A stretch of 33,080 nt of DNA from Promethearchaeota archaeon (GCA_016840165.1 JAEOSU010000024.1:1-33080), one strand, 5' to 3'. Counted from the stretch's first letter, positions 4,626 to 10,022 are shown. Notes: generated by a model not told the origin, from the letters alone. Made by a program: numbers and translations.

Positions 4626-5222
4626 ATGTACGATAATCAAAATTACTTGGAATATGAGGATGATAATTTATTTGATTCTTATAAAAATGAATATGTCTCT
4701 ACCATCTCAAATCTTTCCAGACAAGTTCGAACTTTATTGAATTATAGAGCTGCATTAATATATCATAGATTAAAACGTATTGAAGTAAAAACTGATGATC
4801 TTATACTTTCTAAATTTCAAATTAATAAAAGTAAATTTGAATCTCTAGCATTAAGATTTATCAAATTATCTCGTAATTTAACTCTTTATGAGGATCAACA
4901 TCATAATCTATCAAACTTTAGAAAAAAGAAATACTCCTCGATTTTAAAGGATATCGCACGTTTAACTAATCAAATATTTATTCTTTTACATTTTTTCTCA
5001 GAAGAAAACATGCTTTTACGTCCATTATTTTTTAAAGTACTAATGAGGATAGCACAAGAAGCGTGCAAAATAGAAATGTATCGAATTAAAGGGCATTTTG
5101 AATTCTATAAAGAATTATGTAAAAACTATAGATCAATAGAAAAGGAGGTTTCAAGACTATTTTTGAATACTGATTGCCAAAAACTTGAAAAACAAGAAGA
5201 AGGTGAAATAATAAGTATATGA
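4626..5222 (+). CDS. Hypothetical helical protein, probably translationally coupled to the LAGLIDADG gene
   Basis: 198-aa ORF whose TGA overlaps the next ATG (ATGA at 5219..5222); no family recognised. Confidence 0.7.
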   Translation: MYDNQNYLEYEDDNLFDSYKNEYVSTISNLSRQVRTLLNYRAALIYHRLKRIEVKTDDLILSKFQINKSKFESLALRFIKLSRNLTLYEDQHHNLSNFRKKKYSSILKDIARLTNQIFILLHFFSEENMLLRPLFFKVLMRIAQEACKIEMYRIKGHFEFYKELCKNYRSIEKEVSRLFLNTDCQKLEKQEEGEIISI

Positions 5223-7606
5223 AAACATATACAATGGTAAGTCGGAAATCTCTGGAAGAAGATCGAATAGCAATATGTCCTAAATTTGGTTGTGAAAGTT
5301 TAACTAGAGTTAAACCATTGAAATTTGGATTTTTAGGATTCGGAAAGTATCCAAAATGTAAAAAACATAAAATGCCATTAATATATATTGATGAAAGAAT
5401 TGGAGATTTTGTGGATGCTGCTCTATCATGCCTTTTCGATATATCAAGTTTACCTCCTAAAAATCTACTCTCTATGATTTCGGAGAAAATTCCCAATGAA
5501 CTAGATACATTTGTTAAAATCTGGATATCTTGTATAACAATTGGAAGAGGAGCACCCATAATATCTAGGTATATGGATTCGATTTCTAACTCATATCTTA
5601 AACATTTAACTAAAAAGCAAATTAAGTCGATTAATAACTGCGATAAAACAAAAAAGAATAATTATCAAACAATTAAGAATGGACTTCAAGAAGTTACGAA
5701 TCAATATACAAGATTACTTAAACACTTGAGAACTCATCATGAAGTTTTTAACTACCCTAAACAACTCAAACCATTTTCAAATAGCCTGAGAACTATACTT
5801 ACAATTTGGCTTGAAAATTGTAAAAAAGTAGAAAAAGAAATAATTTCGAATGAACAAAAATCCGATAAATCTTTAACTGAAGTAAAAAATATGTATGATT
5901 CTCTCCTTAATATAGGAATACTCATGTGCTTACTTGGATATTCAACAAAAAAGAGAGAAAAATTAACAAATAAAATAACGGCATTCGATCGTTTTAATGC
6001 TTATCACGAATTTTATACAAATGGAATTACTAGAAAATTTACTAAGAATGATATTTTGGCATTATATCAAAATATTTTCCAAAATTCTGAAGAAAATTTA
6101 TGTACTTTCGCTTCATTCGGACGAAAATTATCGGTCAATAACCCTGGGTTAAAAATTATCACCCCTAAGAGAGATATTATTAATCAATATACTCATTCTA
6201 ACGAGAAAAACATGATTTATAATTCATTTCTTAAAAAACTAAAATCTCCATCTGATAATTCAAATACTAATGCTAATAATTGGTTTACACAGATCCTATT
6301 AGAGACTATGAAACATTACTCCTTCCTGAAAGAATATGCTAGTCTTAGAAAAATGAGCATTCCTTTTGGATTATCGGATTCTTATCTTTATGATAAGAGA
6401 TACAAAAAATCGGTCATTTCTCATGAATATCTCGATGAAATGAGGAAAAATATAAGTGAATTTATTAAAAAAAAAATAAGATCAGATACTAATTTAACAA
6501 AAAAAGCATTAAAAGCACGAAATCAAATTGTTACTATTATTGAGAAATATAGGAATGAAAATAATCCGAAATTGACTGCAAATACTCAGATAAGTAAAAA
6601 ACTGAAAAAAAGTTATTTTCATGATATTTCTTCACCTCAACAAGCTTACTATCTAGGATTATTATTCGCTGATGGTTGGATAACTATTGCTCGAAGTAAA
6701 GGCGGTTCTCGTTCATTCAGAATCTCATTATCCCTAAAAGTTGAAGATAAACCAATCATTAAACGTTTTGCACAAGAGATTGGCTTAAACGAATCAAGAG
6801 TTCTTGAACGTGACAGCAAGGACCCAAAGACTGGAAATGTTTATCGCATGGCTTATCTACAATTTGGTGTTGGTAGCACATCAATAAAAAACTCCATGGC
6901 ACGTGATCTTATAAAGTTAGGAATGACATACAAAAAAGATACTATGGGAAAACGCAGCAAAGTTCCTATTCTCCCCGTTTTTTGTAACATTAAAGGCGAA
7001 GTAGACCAAGATCTAATGTTAGCATTTTTACTAGGTTATTTTGATGGCGATGGCACTTTGAAGGGATCTAATGGCGGAGAGATATATTCTAGCAATTATA
7101 ATTTTATTTCCGCTATAAAGATTGTGTATAATTTAGGAAAAATATGTAAAATCGAAAGAGTAAAATTTGATCCCCTTAAAAAATTTCATACAAAACGATC
7201 TCTTTATTCCTTATATATTAATAAAGAAATGTTTAAAGATATAATGAGTCTTAACTTGAATTCGATGGAAAGAAAAAGAGTCGACCCTAAATCGATTGTT
7301 CTTAATGCTCCTTTAATGACTAAACAAAGATTGTGGATAAAGAAAGAATTACCTAAAGAATATCTCAAGACAATCCTAAAAACCCATTCACCTAGTAAGA
7401 TCGCGAAATTAATTGGGATCGATCATAATACGTTTCTAAAATTCTTGAGAGTTGTTTACAATATCAAACCAAAAGAAAAGGGATATTATATAGCATTATC
7501 ATATGATAGAAAACAACAATCAGATAATAGTGAGTTAAATAGAATATATGTCGAAACAACAAGACACTTAATAGATATTGGTAAAAGAAATCCTTTCATT
7601 CAATAA
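5219..7606 (+). CDS. Multi-domain protein with an N-terminal Cys/His Zn-binding motif and a two-motif LAGLIDADG endonuclease domain
   Basis: YYLGLLFADG (6647..6676) and AFLLGYFDGDG (7022..7054). N-terminal CPKFGC...CKKH; HTH-like segments SLRKMSIPFGLSDSYL and SPSKIAKLIGIDHNTFLKFL. Confidence 0.85.
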   Translation: MKTYTMVSRKSLEEDRIAICPKFGCESLTRVKPLKFGFLGFGKYPKCKKHKMPLIYIDERIGDFVDAALSCLFDISSLPPKNLLSMISEKIPNELDTFVKIWISCITIGRGAPIISRYMDSISNSYLKHLTKKQIKSINNCDKTKKNNYQTIKNGLQEVTNQYTRLLKHLRTHHEVFNYPKQLKPFSNSLRTILTIWLENCKKVEKEIISNEQKSDKSLTEVKNMYDSLLNIGILMCLLGYSTKKREKLTNKITAFDRFNAYHEFYTNGITRKFTKNDILALYQNIFQNSEENLCTFASFGRKLSVNNPGLKIITPKRDIINQYTHSNEKNMIYNSFLKKLKSPSDNSNTNANNWFTQILLETMKHYSFLKEYASLRKMSIPFGLSDSYLYDKRYKKSVISHEYLDEMRKNISEFIKKKIRSDTNLTKKALKARNQIVTIIEKYRNENNPKLTANTQISKKLKKSYFHDISSPQQAYYLGLLFADGWITIARSKGGSRSFRISLSLKVEDKPIIKRFAQEIGLNESRVLERDSKDPKTGNVYRMAYLQFGVGSTSIKNSMARDLIKLGMTYKKDTMGKRSKVPILPVFCNIKGEVDQDLMLAFLLGYFDGDGTLKGSNGGEIYSSNYNFISAIKIVYNLGKICKIERVKFDPLKKFHTKRSLYSLYINKEMFKDIMSLNLNSMERKRVDPKSIVLNAPLMTKQRLWIKKELPKEYLKTILKTHSPSKIAKLIGIDHNTFLKFLRVVYNIKPKEKGYYIALSYDRKQQSDNSELNRIYVETTRHLIDIGKRNPFIQ

Positions 7607-7730
7607 AATTTATAAAAATAATCCTTGTTAGTCTAATAAATCTCTTAATTTTTAATAAAAGCATAAAATTTTTATGAATTAGAGTATTCAAACAATTAAT
7701 TATAATATTTAAAATAGTTGTGAATTTAAT

Positions 7731-10022
7731 ATGGTGAAAGTTAAAAACCCTGAGGACATCGTCCGGATGGTTACCAGCAAAAACTATGCGAAAAAGAGAA
7801 TTTTTTCGATTGTTGCACATATTGATCACGGTAAAACAACCGCATCCGACTATCTATTACGAAGAGCAGGTCTGATGCGGGAAGAGGATGCAGGACAGCT
7901 CCAAATGACCGATTCAGATTTAGAATAAGAATTACTTCTTCTACTGAAAGACGAGGAGCAAGAAAGAGGTATTACTATATTTACAAGTGTTGTACTCTTG
8001 TCGTTTAATGATCCTCGAGTACCTGATGATAAAGAACCATATATCTTTCAAATTAATGACACTCCAGGACATATCTCGTTTACAGGAGAAGTTTCCCGTG
8101 CTTTAAGAGGTTCTGATGGAGCAATTATCCTTGTTGATGCGTTAGAGGGAGTTATGACCCAGACTGAAACCAACATTCGGTTAGCTGTGGGCAAGGAACT
8201 CTGTAAACCGGTTTTATTCATTAATAAGGTTGATCGTTTGATTAGTGAGCTGAAATTAAGTCCAAAAGATACCTATGCCAAGATTGATGAGATTACGAAA
8301 CAAGTAAATGAATTAATCAAAAAAGTTAGACCTGAAGGAGAGGACTTTAGCGATTGGGGAGTAGATTTCGCTAAGAATAGTGTTGCCGTTGGCTCTGCGA
8401 AACATGGGTGGGGCTTTACTTATCAGATATTAAAAGATAAAGGACTAACTCCTTTAACTGTGTTTGAAAAGTACACCGAAGGCGATATCAATTGGTTGCG
8501 AGAAAACCTTCCGCTTGACGAACCAATGTTAAGAATGGTTGTTGATCATTTACCTGATCCTGTAACTGCAGCAAAATATAGACTACCCCATATCTGGGGC
8601 GGCGACTTGAATTCTGAGTTAGGAAAAGCGTTACAAAAAAGTGATCCCAAAGGACCTCTCTATGGGATGATTACAAAAATATTTTTAGACCCTAAAAGGA
8701 ATTATCAACCCACACTTATCGGAAGAGTATTTTCTGGAACGTTTGATCAATCAGATACCGTTTATTTAATAACTGGTCATGAAAAGCAGCGAGTAAAACG
8801 ATTAGGAGTTATGGAGATCACTGATATTTTAGATATACCCCAAGTACCTGCGGGAAATTTATTTGCTTTATACGGATTCATGTGTCCCTCAGGAGAAACA
8901 TTTATGTCTGCTGAAGATTTACCCAAAGAAAAGGAAGAAATAGACAGACTTCCTTCCTTCGAAAAGATAAGTTATGCTTGTGAAGCGGTAGTATCAAGAA
9001 GTATTAAACCCCATGATCCTCAAGATTTAGCCAAACTCGGAGATGTCGTCCAAAGATGGATTCAAGCTGATCCTACTGCAGAATTCCGTCGTAATGTTGA
9101 ATCGGGTGAGTATATTTTAAGTGGAATTGATCCATTACAAATCGAGATCTTAGTTAAACGTATTAATAACTTAGTAAAAATTGATGTTGGAGAGCCAATC
9201 ATTGTTTATCGAGAAAAAATCAATAAGAGAAGTAAAGAAATTTATACTAAATCTACAAATACACATAACCGGATATTACTCTACGTAGAGCCTGTGGATG
9301 AAAAAACTCATAAATTATTGGAATCTGGGAAGATAACACAGTACATGAATGAAAAAGATCGTGCAGTTTTATTTAGAGAAGAAGCAGGTTGGGATGCCAA
9401 GGAAGCCAGAAGAATAATTGATATTTATAATGGCAATCTATTGGTTAACGGAGCCTCTGGATTACAAAGGTTTGACCGCATTAAAAATGATCTTATTAGT
9501 GCGTATAGAGATTGGGTCAGTGAATGCATCATTGCAAAGGAACCTGCCATGGGCATTAAAGCAACATTTACAGATTTAGTGATTCATGAAGATCCCAGAC
9601 ATACGCAATACGCTCAAACTGCCAGTATGACTTTCTCAGCACTCTCCATTGCTACGCTGCAAGCTGACGCTCATTTATATGAACCAATACAAAAAATTGA
9701 TGTGAAGACACCTCAAGGCACTGAAGGTGGAGTGTTAGCAATTATAAATAAACATCGTGGCCAAGTTAATAACGTTATTCCTGAAGGTGAATATGTAAGA
9801 GTACAAGGACAACTTCCAGCAGCAGAACTCATCGGTATTGCGGATGAAATTCGTGGTACAACTCAAGGAAGAGCTTTTTTTGGGTATGAATTTAAAGGGT
9901 TTGAAAAAGTCCCGGCAAGTTTAGAAGAGGATTTAATATTGGAAATACGTAGGAGAAAAGGAATGCCAGAAACGATGCCATCCGCAGATAGTTGGTTGCG
10001 TTTCTTGTATAAAAAGACTTAA
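7731..10022 (+). CDS. fusA: Elongation factor 2 (EF-2 or paralog), join(7731..7919,7950..10022), 753 aa after removing a 30-nt intron
   Basis: ORFs 7731..7928 and 7998..10022 are in the same frame. G1 AHIDHGKTT is in exon 1; EEQERGIT (7953..7976), DTPGH and NKVD are in exon 2; C-terminal EPIQK..., RGTTQGRA, IRRRKG are intact. Confidence 0.92.
7920..7949 (+). other. Putative 30-nt BHB-type pre-mRNA intron in EF-2
   Basis: Central helix TCAG 7914..7917 / CTGA 7944..7947; 3-nt bulges ATT 7918..7920 and AAG 7948..7950; intron stem TAGAAtAAG 7921..7929 / CTTcTTCTA 7935..7943. Cutting after the 2nd nt of each bulge removes 7920..7949 and restores the EF-2 consensus spacing. Confidence 0.85.

What the first reader, a model, noticed from the sequence alone, without database searches (positions are those of the whole stretch)
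7898..7959. Candidate bulge-helix-bulge pre-mRNA intron (30 nt) splitting an archaeal EF-2 gene
Seen: the EF-2 frame reads ...T D S D | L E * E L L L L L K | D E E Q E R G I T, a 10-codon insert with an in-frame TAA in switch I of an otherwise intact gene. The RNA can form an hBHBh' motif. The central 4-bp helix is UCAG(7914-17)/CUGA(7944-47), with 3-nt bulges AUU(7918-20) and AAG(7948-50) on opposite strands. The intron hairpin is 7921-29/7935-43 (8 of 9 pairs, AAUUA loop). Exon-exon pairing is U7913-A7951, CG7910-11/CG7952-53 and GCUCC(7898-7902)/GGAGC(7955-59); this outer helix is imperfect, and U7913 could instead pair with A7948. Established: archaeal splicing endonuclease EndA cuts after the 2nd nt of each bulge and RtcB ligates. 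Applying that rule excises exactly 7920..7949 and gives D-S-D-D-E-E-Q-E-R-G-I-T, matching the D-x4-E-x-E-R-G-I-T spacing of EF-G/EF-2. The structural and protein-based boundaries therefore agree independently. The archaeal protein-gene BHB intron I know as well documented is crenarchaeal cbf5; I know of none in EF-2 or in Asgard archaea but cannot check the literature. Inference: EF-2 synthesis here depends on the tRNA-splicing machinery, reminiscent of the non-spliceosomal HAC1/XBP1 splicing of eukaryotes.
Basis: partly seen in the sequence, partly recalled or inferred. Interest (0 to 1): 0.95.

Follow-up and report, generated by a model that had tools for sequence, protein, structure and literature searches.

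The report
tRNA-type mini-intron in Asgard EF-2
The only elongation factor 2 gene of this Loki-type Asgard archaeon is interrupted by a 30-base insert with a stop codon. The insert has the shape cut by the archaeal tRNA-splicing enzyme, so it is most likely an intron removed from the mRNA, although no RNA data yet show the spliced message.

Summary
The gene at 7731..10022 belongs to the EF-2 family. A 30-nt insert (7920..7949) with an in-frame TAA sits exactly between codons D63 and D64.

- **Real DNA:** independent metagenome contigs carry the insert unchanged.
- **Functional gene:** about 50 orthologs lack the insert, and their two halves abut at exactly this point. Seven diverged Promethearchaeota (Lokiarchaeota) genomes carry it at the same site. 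Their genes are otherwise intact, with dN/dS of 0.05-0.10.
- **Structure:** the protein-defined boundaries fall in the register of a bulge-helix-bulge motif. This comprises a 4-bp helix between exon and intron, a 3-nt 5' bulge and a 9-bp hairpin. The genome-wide chance frequency of such a fit is about 7e-5.
- **Covariation:** look-alike 30-31-nt inserts occur at three other sites of the same gene in relatives. Across ten introns at three sites, 95% of pairs hold and 6 of 13 covary.
- **3' site:** it is relaxed, as in the cbf5 introns.
- **Machinery and context:** the genome has two EndA paralogs and RtcB, and no second EF-2. I confirmed similar inserts in its mevalonate kinase, RNase HII, DnaG and a zinc-ribbon gene.

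No RNA evidence could be obtained. This scan has noted the same kind of intron before on other DNA, including an EF-2 gene of another genome. I found no paper reporting it.

The parts
7731..7919 (+). Exon 1 of the EF-2 gene (63 codons: P-loop AHIDHGKT up to ...QMTDSD)
   Evidence: Translation. Pfam GTP_EFTU profile positions 3-37. The orthologs' N-terminal tblastn hit ends exactly here.
7920..7949 (+). 30-nt mini-intron (1 bulge nt + 9-nt arm + 5-nt loop + 9-nt arm + 4-nt helix strand + 2 bulge nt)
   Evidence: Absent from about 50 orthologs whose flanks abut. Present at the same site in G024, G015, G016, YT5_013, 9R3_44 and bin132. The boundaries are unique because there is no terminal repeat.
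7950..10022 (+). Exon 2 of the EF-2 gene (690 codons plus stop), starting DEEQERGITI (switch I)
   Evidence: Pfam GTP_EFTU 49-187, EF-G domains II, III, IV and C. NCBIfam aEF-2 profile positions 62-717.
7926..7928 (+). In-frame TAA, third codon of the intron. It stops translation of unspliced RNA after 65 residues.
   Evidence: TAA is kept at this position in all 7 site-A introns.
7914..7917 (+). Central 4-bp helix H, exon strand UCAG, pairing with 7944-7947
   Evidence: 4 Watson-Crick pairs. The pairing is 100% kept across 10 introns at 3 sites, with 3 of the 4 pairs covarying (UCAG/CUGA, ACAG/CUGU, GCGC/GCGU).
7944..7947 (+). Central helix H, intron strand CUGA
   Evidence: As above.
7918..7920 (+). 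5' bulge AUU; predicted cut between 7919 and 7920
   Evidence: A 3-nt bulge between H and the hairpin in the MFE, centroid and alifold structures. The cut after the 2nd bulge nt matches the protein-defined boundary.
7921..7943 (+). Intron hairpin h': arms 7921-29 and 7935-43, loop 7930-34
   Evidence: 8 of 9 pairs here. Relatives vary in the loop and keep the stem, with G-C to A-U and A-U to U-A changes.
7948..7950 (+). 3' splice region AAG; predicted cut between 7949 and 7950. Closed only by U7913-A7951, or part of an internal loop.
   Evidence: The boundary is defined by orthologs. Energy evaluation: the closed-bulge form scores -8.1 kcal/mol, the open-loop form -12.6 and the MFE -14.3.
7898..7902 (+). 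Distal exon-exon helix, 5' strand GCUCC (pairs with 7955-7959)
   Evidence: Predicted by MFE and alifold. The two strands are 5/5 complementary in 7/7 intron bearers against 3/53 intron-less orthologs.
7955..7959 (+). Distal exon-exon helix, 3' strand GGAGC
   Evidence: As above.

Best explanation
Positions 7920..7949 are a tRNA-type (bulge-helix-bulge, relaxed form) mini-intron in the pre-mRNA of the organism's only EF-2 gene.

Proposed mechanism:
- The exon bases UCAG pair with CUGA at the intron's 3' end. A 9-bp intron hairpin stacks on this helix, which presents a 3-nt bulge at the 5' site. The 3' site lies in a loop bounded by a distal exon-exon helix (GCUCC/GGAGC).
- The heterotetrameric splicing endonuclease EndA (two paralogs present) cuts after 7919 and after 7949.
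- RtcB joins the exons, restoring ...TDSD-DEEQERGIT... and a 753-residue EF-2.
- Unspliced RNA would yield only a 65-residue fragment, because of the conserved TAA.

Shown here: the insert, its exact boundaries, the conserved and covarying structure, purifying selection on the host gene, and the presence of the enzymes. Inferred: the cleavage and ligation themselves.
For: (1) Boundaries. The N- and C-terminal parts abut in about 50 orthologs and are separated by exactly 30 nt in 7.

(2) Chance. The BHB register at those boundaries has a genome-wide frequency of 7.4e-5.

(3) Structure conservation.
- 96% of pairs are kept in the 7 site-A introns, against 33-56% for slid controls.
- Across 10 introns at 3 sites aligned by protein-defined boundaries, 95.4% of cells are paired, 6 of 13 pairs change on both sides, and 0/500 shuffles reach the observed covariation.
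- RNAalifold finds the same helices unaided.

(4) The gene is functional.
- All spliced CDS are open for 749-753 codons.
- dN/dS is 0.05-0.10 for intron bearers, the same as for intron-less pairs, while dS between bearers is saturated.

(5) G016 carries a second insert of 31 nt in the P-loop. It shifts the frame, so it cannot be translated through.

(6) Machinery.
- Two EndA paralogs are present. One is closest to the 186-residue chains of PDB 3p1z_B and 3ajv_B; that these are the catalytic subunit of the Aeropyrum heterotetramer is from memory.
- RtcB is present.
- Asgard EndA is reported as the (alpha-beta)2 type with the broad-specificity L1 loop (PMC5829648).

(7) Genome context.
- ARAGORN sees only 13 tRNAs in a 99.7%-complete genome.
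- Four other genes of this genome carry 30-43-nt inserts at points where family profiles abut: DnaG 26|27, and mevalonate kinase and RNase HII exon 2 starting at profile positions 11 and 10. The zinc-ribbon ortholog in G018 is contiguous.

(8) This is the only EF-2 family gene in G000.
Against: No RNA evidence was obtained; no run showed a spliced junction.

The 3' cut site lacks an adjacent outer helix. The closed 3-nt bulge is energetically disfavoured in the nearest-neighbour model, so the motif is not canonical.

The single-sequence fold is not exceptional (z = -1.5).

The near-invariance of the intron and of the flanking synonymous sites could partly reflect recent lateral spread rather than structural constraint.
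Confidence: 0.85

Rival explanations
1. Translational bypass (ribosome hopping, as in phage T4 gene 60). The ribosome takes off at GAU 7917-19 and lands after the hairpin, skipping the insert without any RNA cleavage.
For: A hairpin with a stop codon lies just after the take-off point. Sequence alone cannot exclude it.
Against: The landing codon does not match the take-off codon in G015 and G016 (GAA against GAU). The stop is two codons after the take-off codon rather than adjacent to it. The exon-intron helix covaries between sites, which a hop does not require. The other inserts of this genome show no matched codon pairs.
Confidence: 0.04
2. The RNA is processed at these boundaries, but not by EndA/RtcB (an unknown nuclease/ligase or a self-processing element).
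For: The 3' site is not a canonical bulge, and no enzyme assay exists.
Against: The 5' site has exact BHB geometry. The size and layout match cbf5 introns, which the heterotetrameric EndA cleaves (PMC2738675). 30 nt is too small for a ribozyme, and no Rfam family matches.
Confidence: 0.05
3. A dead or dying gene: the insert is a disabling DNA insertion in a pseudogene.
For: An in-frame stop lies in an essential motif.
Against: dN/dS is 0.05-0.10 and the 750-codon frame is intact in seven lineages whose synonymous sites are saturated. It is the only EF-2 gene in a 99.7%-complete genome.
Confidence: 0.02
4. Stop-codon read-through, which would give an EF-2 with 10 extra residues in switch I.
For: The insert is a multiple of 3 and carries a single stop.
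Against: Substitutions among the inserts follow RNA pairing, not codon constraint; most are non-synonymous. Sister inserts of 31 and 43 nt shift the frame. The insert would disrupt switch I.
Confidence: 0.02
5. Assembly or sequencing artefact.
For: None found.
Against: Independent studies' contigs carry the insert, and six other assemblies carry it at the same site.
Confidence: 0.01

Closest known systems
BHB intron of the cbf5 (pseudouridine synthase) pre-mRNA in Crenarchaeota (Watanabe 2002; Yoshinari 2006; Yokobori 2009, PMC2738675)
   Same: A short intron inside a coding sequence (cbf5 introns are 16-44 bp; this one is 30 nt). It has an unconventional, relaxed BHB, with cuts predicted between the 2nd and 3rd bulge residues. 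The host has the hetero-oligomeric EndA. Its distribution is patchy, implying gain and loss among relatives.
   Different: It lies in a different gene (EF-2, the host's only copy) and a different phylum (Promethearchaeota/Asgard). The same gene shows at least four intron positions across relatives, and several other genes in the same genome are interrupted. cbf5 splicing is proven by cDNA; splicing here is not.
[quoted passage not shown]
   Same: The same hBHBh'/HBh' architecture and presumably the same enzymes. This genome also appears intron-rich in tRNA genes.
   Different: The substrate is an mRNA, so the exon strand of the helix is coding sequence. Splicing must restore a reading frame.
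HAC1/XBP1 unconventional mRNA splicing in eukaryotes (Ire1 plus tRNA ligase/RtcB)
   Same: A non-spliceosomal, endonuclease-plus-RtcB-type cut-and-join of an mRNA that changes the protein made.
   Different: The nuclease is Ire1 rather than EndA. The sites are stem-loops rather than a BHB, and the event is regulated by stress. There is no evidence of regulation here, so this is an analogy only.

Membership tests
Canonical archaeal hBHBh' intron | Central 4-bp helix between the two cut sites | tested here: met
   UCAG 7914-17 pairs with CUGA 7944-47, 4 Watson-Crick pairs. The helix is kept in all 10 related introns, with covariation.
Canonical archaeal hBHBh' intron | Two 3-nt bulges on opposite strands, each flanked by helices on both sides (h and h') | tested here: not met
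   The 5' bulge AUU is flanked by H and a 9-bp h'. The 3' AAG is closed only by one U-A pair. MFE and alifold place it in an internal loop, and the nearest outer helix is 4 nt away.
Canonical archaeal hBHBh' intron | Cuts after the 2nd bulge nt give a correct product | tested here: met
   Cuts at 7919|7920 and 7949|7950 equal the ortholog-defined insert and restore DSD-DEEQERGIT.
Relaxed (HBh'-type) BHB intron in pre-mRNA, cbf5-like | At least one complete bulge with H and h', and a size in the range 16-44 nt inside a CDS | tested here: met
   A complete 5' half; 30 nt; inside the CDS (range from PMC2738675).
Relaxed (HBh'-type) BHB intron in pre-mRNA, cbf5-like | Host encodes a hetero-oligomeric (alpha-beta)2 EndA and an RNA ligase | tested here: met
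   Two distinct EndA paralogs of about 200 aa on C14 and C4, both above the TIGR00324 cut-off, and RtcB on C64. The L1 loop was not examined.
Relaxed (HBh'-type) BHB intron in pre-mRNA, cbf5-like | Spliced mRNA, or an excised (circular) intron, observed | tested here: inconclusive
   One metatranscriptome run holds only fragments from relatives, and no joint was reported.
Archaeal elongation factor 2 (aEF-2) | Five-domain EF-G/EF-2 architecture with G motifs | tested here: met
   Pfam GTP_EFTU, EF-G_D2, EFG_III, EFG_IV and EFG_C.
Archaeal elongation factor 2 (aEF-2) | Score above the NCBIfam equivalog cut-off (TIGR00490, 738 bits) | tested here: not met
   595.5 bits read through the stop. The intron-less ortholog of G019 also scores only 606 bits. 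The whole lineage is diverged, and the domain IV loop reads HEDPRHTQ instead of H-x-D-x-x-HRG (canonical motif from memory).
Programmed translational bypass (T4 gene 60 type) | Matching take-off and landing codons, with a stop directly after take-off | tested here: not met
   GAU against GAC here, and GAU against GAA in G015 and G016. The TAA is the third codon after take-off.
Group I / group II introns | Ribozyme core | tested here: not met
   30 nt only, and no Rfam match in the window.

The most novel reading that the evidence does not exclude
The EF-2 mini-intron is a mobile element rather than a static relic.

- A stereotyped 30-nt hairpin intron, whose 4-nt 3' segment pairs with the target exon, has entered or moved between at least three or four sites of the same gene: H30|I31, D32|H33, D61|S62 and D63|D64.
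- It has spread or been lost repeatedly among Promethearchaeota lineages. Site-A bearers sit at 7 separate tips, each with an intron-less sister.
- Spread may be by gene conversion of a short tract (7897-7960), possibly helped in some genomes by the free-standing LAGLIDADG cassette inserted just upstream in G000 and G015.

This would be an active process of intron gain in protein-coding genes of the closest archaeal relatives of eukaryotes.
Probability: 0.3. Interest if true: 0.9.

Novelty: new member of a known kind. Interest (0 to 1): 0.75.

Why it matters
EndA-type splicing of a coding sequence is documented in print essentially for one gene family, crenarchaeal cbf5. In this genome the assembly's only EF-2 gene, encoding an essential translation factor, would depend on it, and so would mevalonate kinase, RNase HII and DnaG.

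- **Biology:** it implies that these cells must splice mRNAs before productive translation. That bears on ideas about how intron-containing genes and the uncoupling of transcription from translation arose on the line to eukaryotes.
- **Annotation:** gene callers will report such genes as truncated or as pseudogenes. That distorts completeness estimates and marker-gene phylogenies, in which EF-2 is commonly used.

Tried and rejected
**(1) RNA evidence.** When laid on the window it showed only fragments under 95% identity, from relatives. Some reach about 7887-7923 and 7951-7994, and none covers 7924-7950. No joint was reported, so nothing can be concluded.

**(2) Genome-wide scan.** I scanned for BHB geometry plus in-frame ORF joining, using frame-shifted controls. 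There was no excess over the controls at any stringency: 5263 loci against 5210-5346, and 66 against 65-74. Gene boundaries swamp the signal, and true cases with short first exons or imperfect stems are filtered out. The scan is unusable as a census.

**(3) Structure-free comparison.** I compared 395 kb of two relatives with G000. It found one mid-gene insert (the zinc-ribbon gene) in about 90,000 aligned residues and none in the relatives' sample. I extrapolate roughly ten per genome, not hundreds.

**(4) Covariance model.** The model of the EF-2 introns found only the window's own intron in G000. Only 150 of about 11,600 first-look candidates were scored. The other introns of this genome are therefore not close sequence relatives.

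**(5) Apparent 330-nt extra match in Loki_b32 (L071).** It is a duplicated C-terminal fragment downstream, not an intron.

**(6) Readings considered and rejected.** Pseudogene, read-through, split two-piece protein and artefact. The first start after the insert is TTG 7998, which would delete switch I.

Full report
**Observation**

The window carries an EF-2 family gene at 7731..10022 (+). Its frame reads ...QMTDSD LE*ELLLLLK DEEQERGITI..., with TAA at 7926-7928.

The minimum-energy fold and the RNAalifold consensus both give the same elements:
- the distal helix GCUCC/GGAGC;
- the UCAG/CUGA helix;
- a 3-nt bulge AUU;
- the hairpin.

Both extend the central helix with U7913-A7948. That leaves the 3' cut site in an internal loop. 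The single-sequence energy is unremarkable (z = -1.5).

**The insert is real DNA**

An 8.8-kb contig from an independent soil metagenome study spans 7600-8400 without a gap and with no listed change between 7873 and 8005. A contig from a third study covers 7610-7958 with no differences.

**The boundaries come from proteins, not from the fold**

I searched 40 relatives, then the whole genus, then GTDB species representatives titled Promethearchaeota or Promethearchaeia MAGs. In about 50 distinct orthologs, the tblastn hits of the 63 N-terminal residues and of the C-terminal part abut exactly.

In six other genomes they are separated by exactly 30 nt at the same point: G024, G015, G016, YT5_013, 9R3_44 and bin132. 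No terminal repeat allows the boundaries to slide. The ortholog-defined insert is therefore 7920..7949, which is exactly what the BHB rule (cut after the second bulge base) predicts. At a fixed position and length of 30, only 7.4e-5 of genome positions show four Watson-Crick central pairs plus at least five stacked inner pairs.

**The structure is conserved and covaries**
- The seven site-A introns differ mostly in the loop and in stem positions that keep pairing (G-C to A-U or G.U; A-U to U-A or U.G). 96% of cells are paired, against 33-56% when partners are slid.
- Relatives also carry look-alike inserts at other sites of the same gene:
  - 30 nt at H30|I31 in the P-loop (Loki_b32 and one other MAG);
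  - 31 nt, frame-shifting, at D32|H33 (G016, which also has the site-A intron);
  - 30 nt at D61|S62 (LW40_45).
- I aligned ten of these purely by their protein-defined boundaries. The exon strand and the intron's 3' strand of the central helix change together: UCAG/CUGA, ACAG/CUGU and GCGC/GCGU.
- In that alignment 95.4% of cells are paired, 6 of 13 pairs have changes on both sides, and no shuffle of 500 reaches the covariation score.

**The host gene is alive**

After removal of the inserts, every CDS is open for 749-753 codons. Pairwise dN/dS is 0.05-0.10 for pairs involving intron bearers. That equals the value for intron-less pairs, while dS between bearers is saturated.

G000 has no other EF-2 family gene. 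The second paralog found in most relatives (about 33% identity) lacks the domain IV histidine loop, which the window's gene retains as HEDPRH. The window's gene is thus the likely translocase of this organism. It cannot work unless the insert is removed: the first start codon downstream (TTG 7998) would delete switch I.

**Machinery and genomic context**
- G000 encodes two EndA paralogs of about 200 residues, both above the endA equivalog cut-off. One is closest to the 186-residue chains 3p1z_B and 3ajv_B. That these are the catalytic subunit of the Aeropyrum pernix heterotetramer is from memory.
- It also encodes RtcB.
- Published work assigns Asgard archaea the (alpha-beta)2 EndA with the L1 loop, which confers broad specificity for relaxed motifs (PMC5829648).
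- ARAGORN finds only 13 tRNA genes in this 99.7%-complete genome. This fits the heavily interrupted tRNA genes reported for some Asgard lineages (bioRxiv 10.64898/2026.10.13.758758).

Following leads from earlier notes of this scan, I confirmed four more interrupted genes in G000. In three of them, a 4-pair helix plus at least 5 stacked inner pairs in my scan's register coincides with the protein-defined boundaries.

| Gene | Insert | Protein evidence | BHB at the boundary |
|---|---|---|---|
| Mevalonate kinase | 31 nt, ILFGE\|HFVVYG | Exon 2 starts at profile position 11 | Exact |
| DnaG | 43 nt, GAIFGQ\|TEGLL | Profile positions 26\|27 abut | Exact |
| Zinc-ribbon gene | 31 nt | G018 ortholog is contiguous | Exact |
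| RNase HII | 30 nt, GIDEAGR\|GPVIGP | Exon 2 starts at profile position 10 | Relaxed |

A structure-free comparison with 395 kb of two relatives found one mid-gene insert per about 90,000 aligned residues. I extrapolate roughly ten per genome.

**Mechanism**

The best reading is a relaxed (HBh'-type) BHB intron, cut by the heterotetrameric EndA at 7919|7920 and 7949|7950 and sealed by RtcB. The 5' site is canonical.

The 3' site is bounded by the central helix and, four bases away, by the distal helix GCUCC/GGAGC. That distal helix is 5/5 complementary in 7 of 7 intron bearers but in only 3 of 53 intron-less orthologs.

The BHB conformer with the distal helix lies 1.7 kcal/mol above the MFE. 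Forcing the single U-A closing pair is unfavourable.

cbf5 introns are likewise 16-44 bp and mostly unconventional BHBs cleaved by the hetero-oligomeric enzyme (PMC2738675). The conserved TAA two codons into the intron would terminate translation of unspliced RNA early.

**Rivals**
- **Ribosome hopping** lacks matched take-off and landing codons in G015 and G016, and does not explain exon-intron covariation.
- **Pseudogene and artefact** are contradicted.
- **Read-through** is contradicted by RNA-like rather than codon-like substitution, and by the frame-shifting sister inserts.
- **An unknown non-EndA processing route** cannot be excluded without an enzyme assay.

**Evolution (inference)**

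On an exon-2 tree of 59 orthologs, the site-A bearers occupy seven separate tips, each with an intron-less close sister.

In all bearers the exon tract 7897-7919 and 7950-7960 is almost invariant, even at synonymous and unpaired positions. In G015 it differs from its sisters at seven synonymous sites within 24 nt.

The 5' 270 nt of the G000 gene group with a different clade than the rest of the gene does.

Either the intron is old, strongly constrained and lost precisely many times, or it spreads laterally with a short conversion tract. I could not decide between these.

**Literature and earlier scan notes**

Full-text searches found no report of BHB introns in Asgard protein-coding genes or in EF-2.

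This scan has noted the phenomenon many times on other DNA. One follow-up concerns an EF-2 gene of another genome, and several others state that public RNA data contained exactly spliced messages for other Asgard genes. I did not verify those claims.

**Verdict**

What is missing is RNA showing the spliced junction.

Noticed in passing
window 4626-7606 (+); L009 545-1186: A two-gene cassette (198 aa, plus a 795-aa protein with two LAGLIDADG motifs; Pfam LAGLIDADG_3) lies between the cca-like gene and EF-2. A homolog (55% identity) occupies the same place only in G015, which is also an intron bearer from a different clade. 16 other relatives, including intron bearer G024, have the cca-like gene directly upstream.
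   Followed up: partly
L018 3682-3712 (-) (G016): A second, 31-nt frame-shifting insert splits the P-loop codons AHID|HGKT of the same EF-2 gene. It has a hairpin with an AAUUA loop and a central helix AUAG/CUAG with 3 of 4 pairs. Removing both inserts restores a 750-codon ORF.
   Followed up: yes
L071 472-501, L075 472-501, L056 565-594: Look-alike 30-nt introns sit at other positions of the EF-2 gene: H30|I31 in Loki_b32 and one other MAG, and D61|S62 in LW40_45. In each, the intron's 4-nt 3' segment is complementary to the local exon.
   Followed up: yes
G000 C87:6225-6255 (+), C100:6689-6718 (+), C58:14482-14524 (-), C66:15910-15940 (-): Mini-inserts of 31, 30, 43 and 31 nt interrupt mevalonate kinase, RNase HII, DnaG and a zinc-ribbon gene of the same genome, at points where family profiles or orthologs are contiguous.
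   Followed up: yes
G000 whole genome; L103 449-2638 (G019): G000 lacks the second, divergent EF-2 paralog that most genus members have (about 33% identity, 729 aa, no domain IV histidine loop). Conversely, a few near-complete relatives (for example G012) show only that paralog.
   Followed up: partly
G000 whole genome: ARAGORN detects only 13 tRNA genes, 8 of them with introns, in a 99.7%-complete genome. This suggests that most tRNA genes are too interrupted to be recognised.
   Followed up: no
L071 2862-2990: A duplicated fragment of the EF-2 C-terminus (residues 648-690, 74% identity) lies about 200 nt downstream of the Loki_b32 gene.
   Followed up: partly
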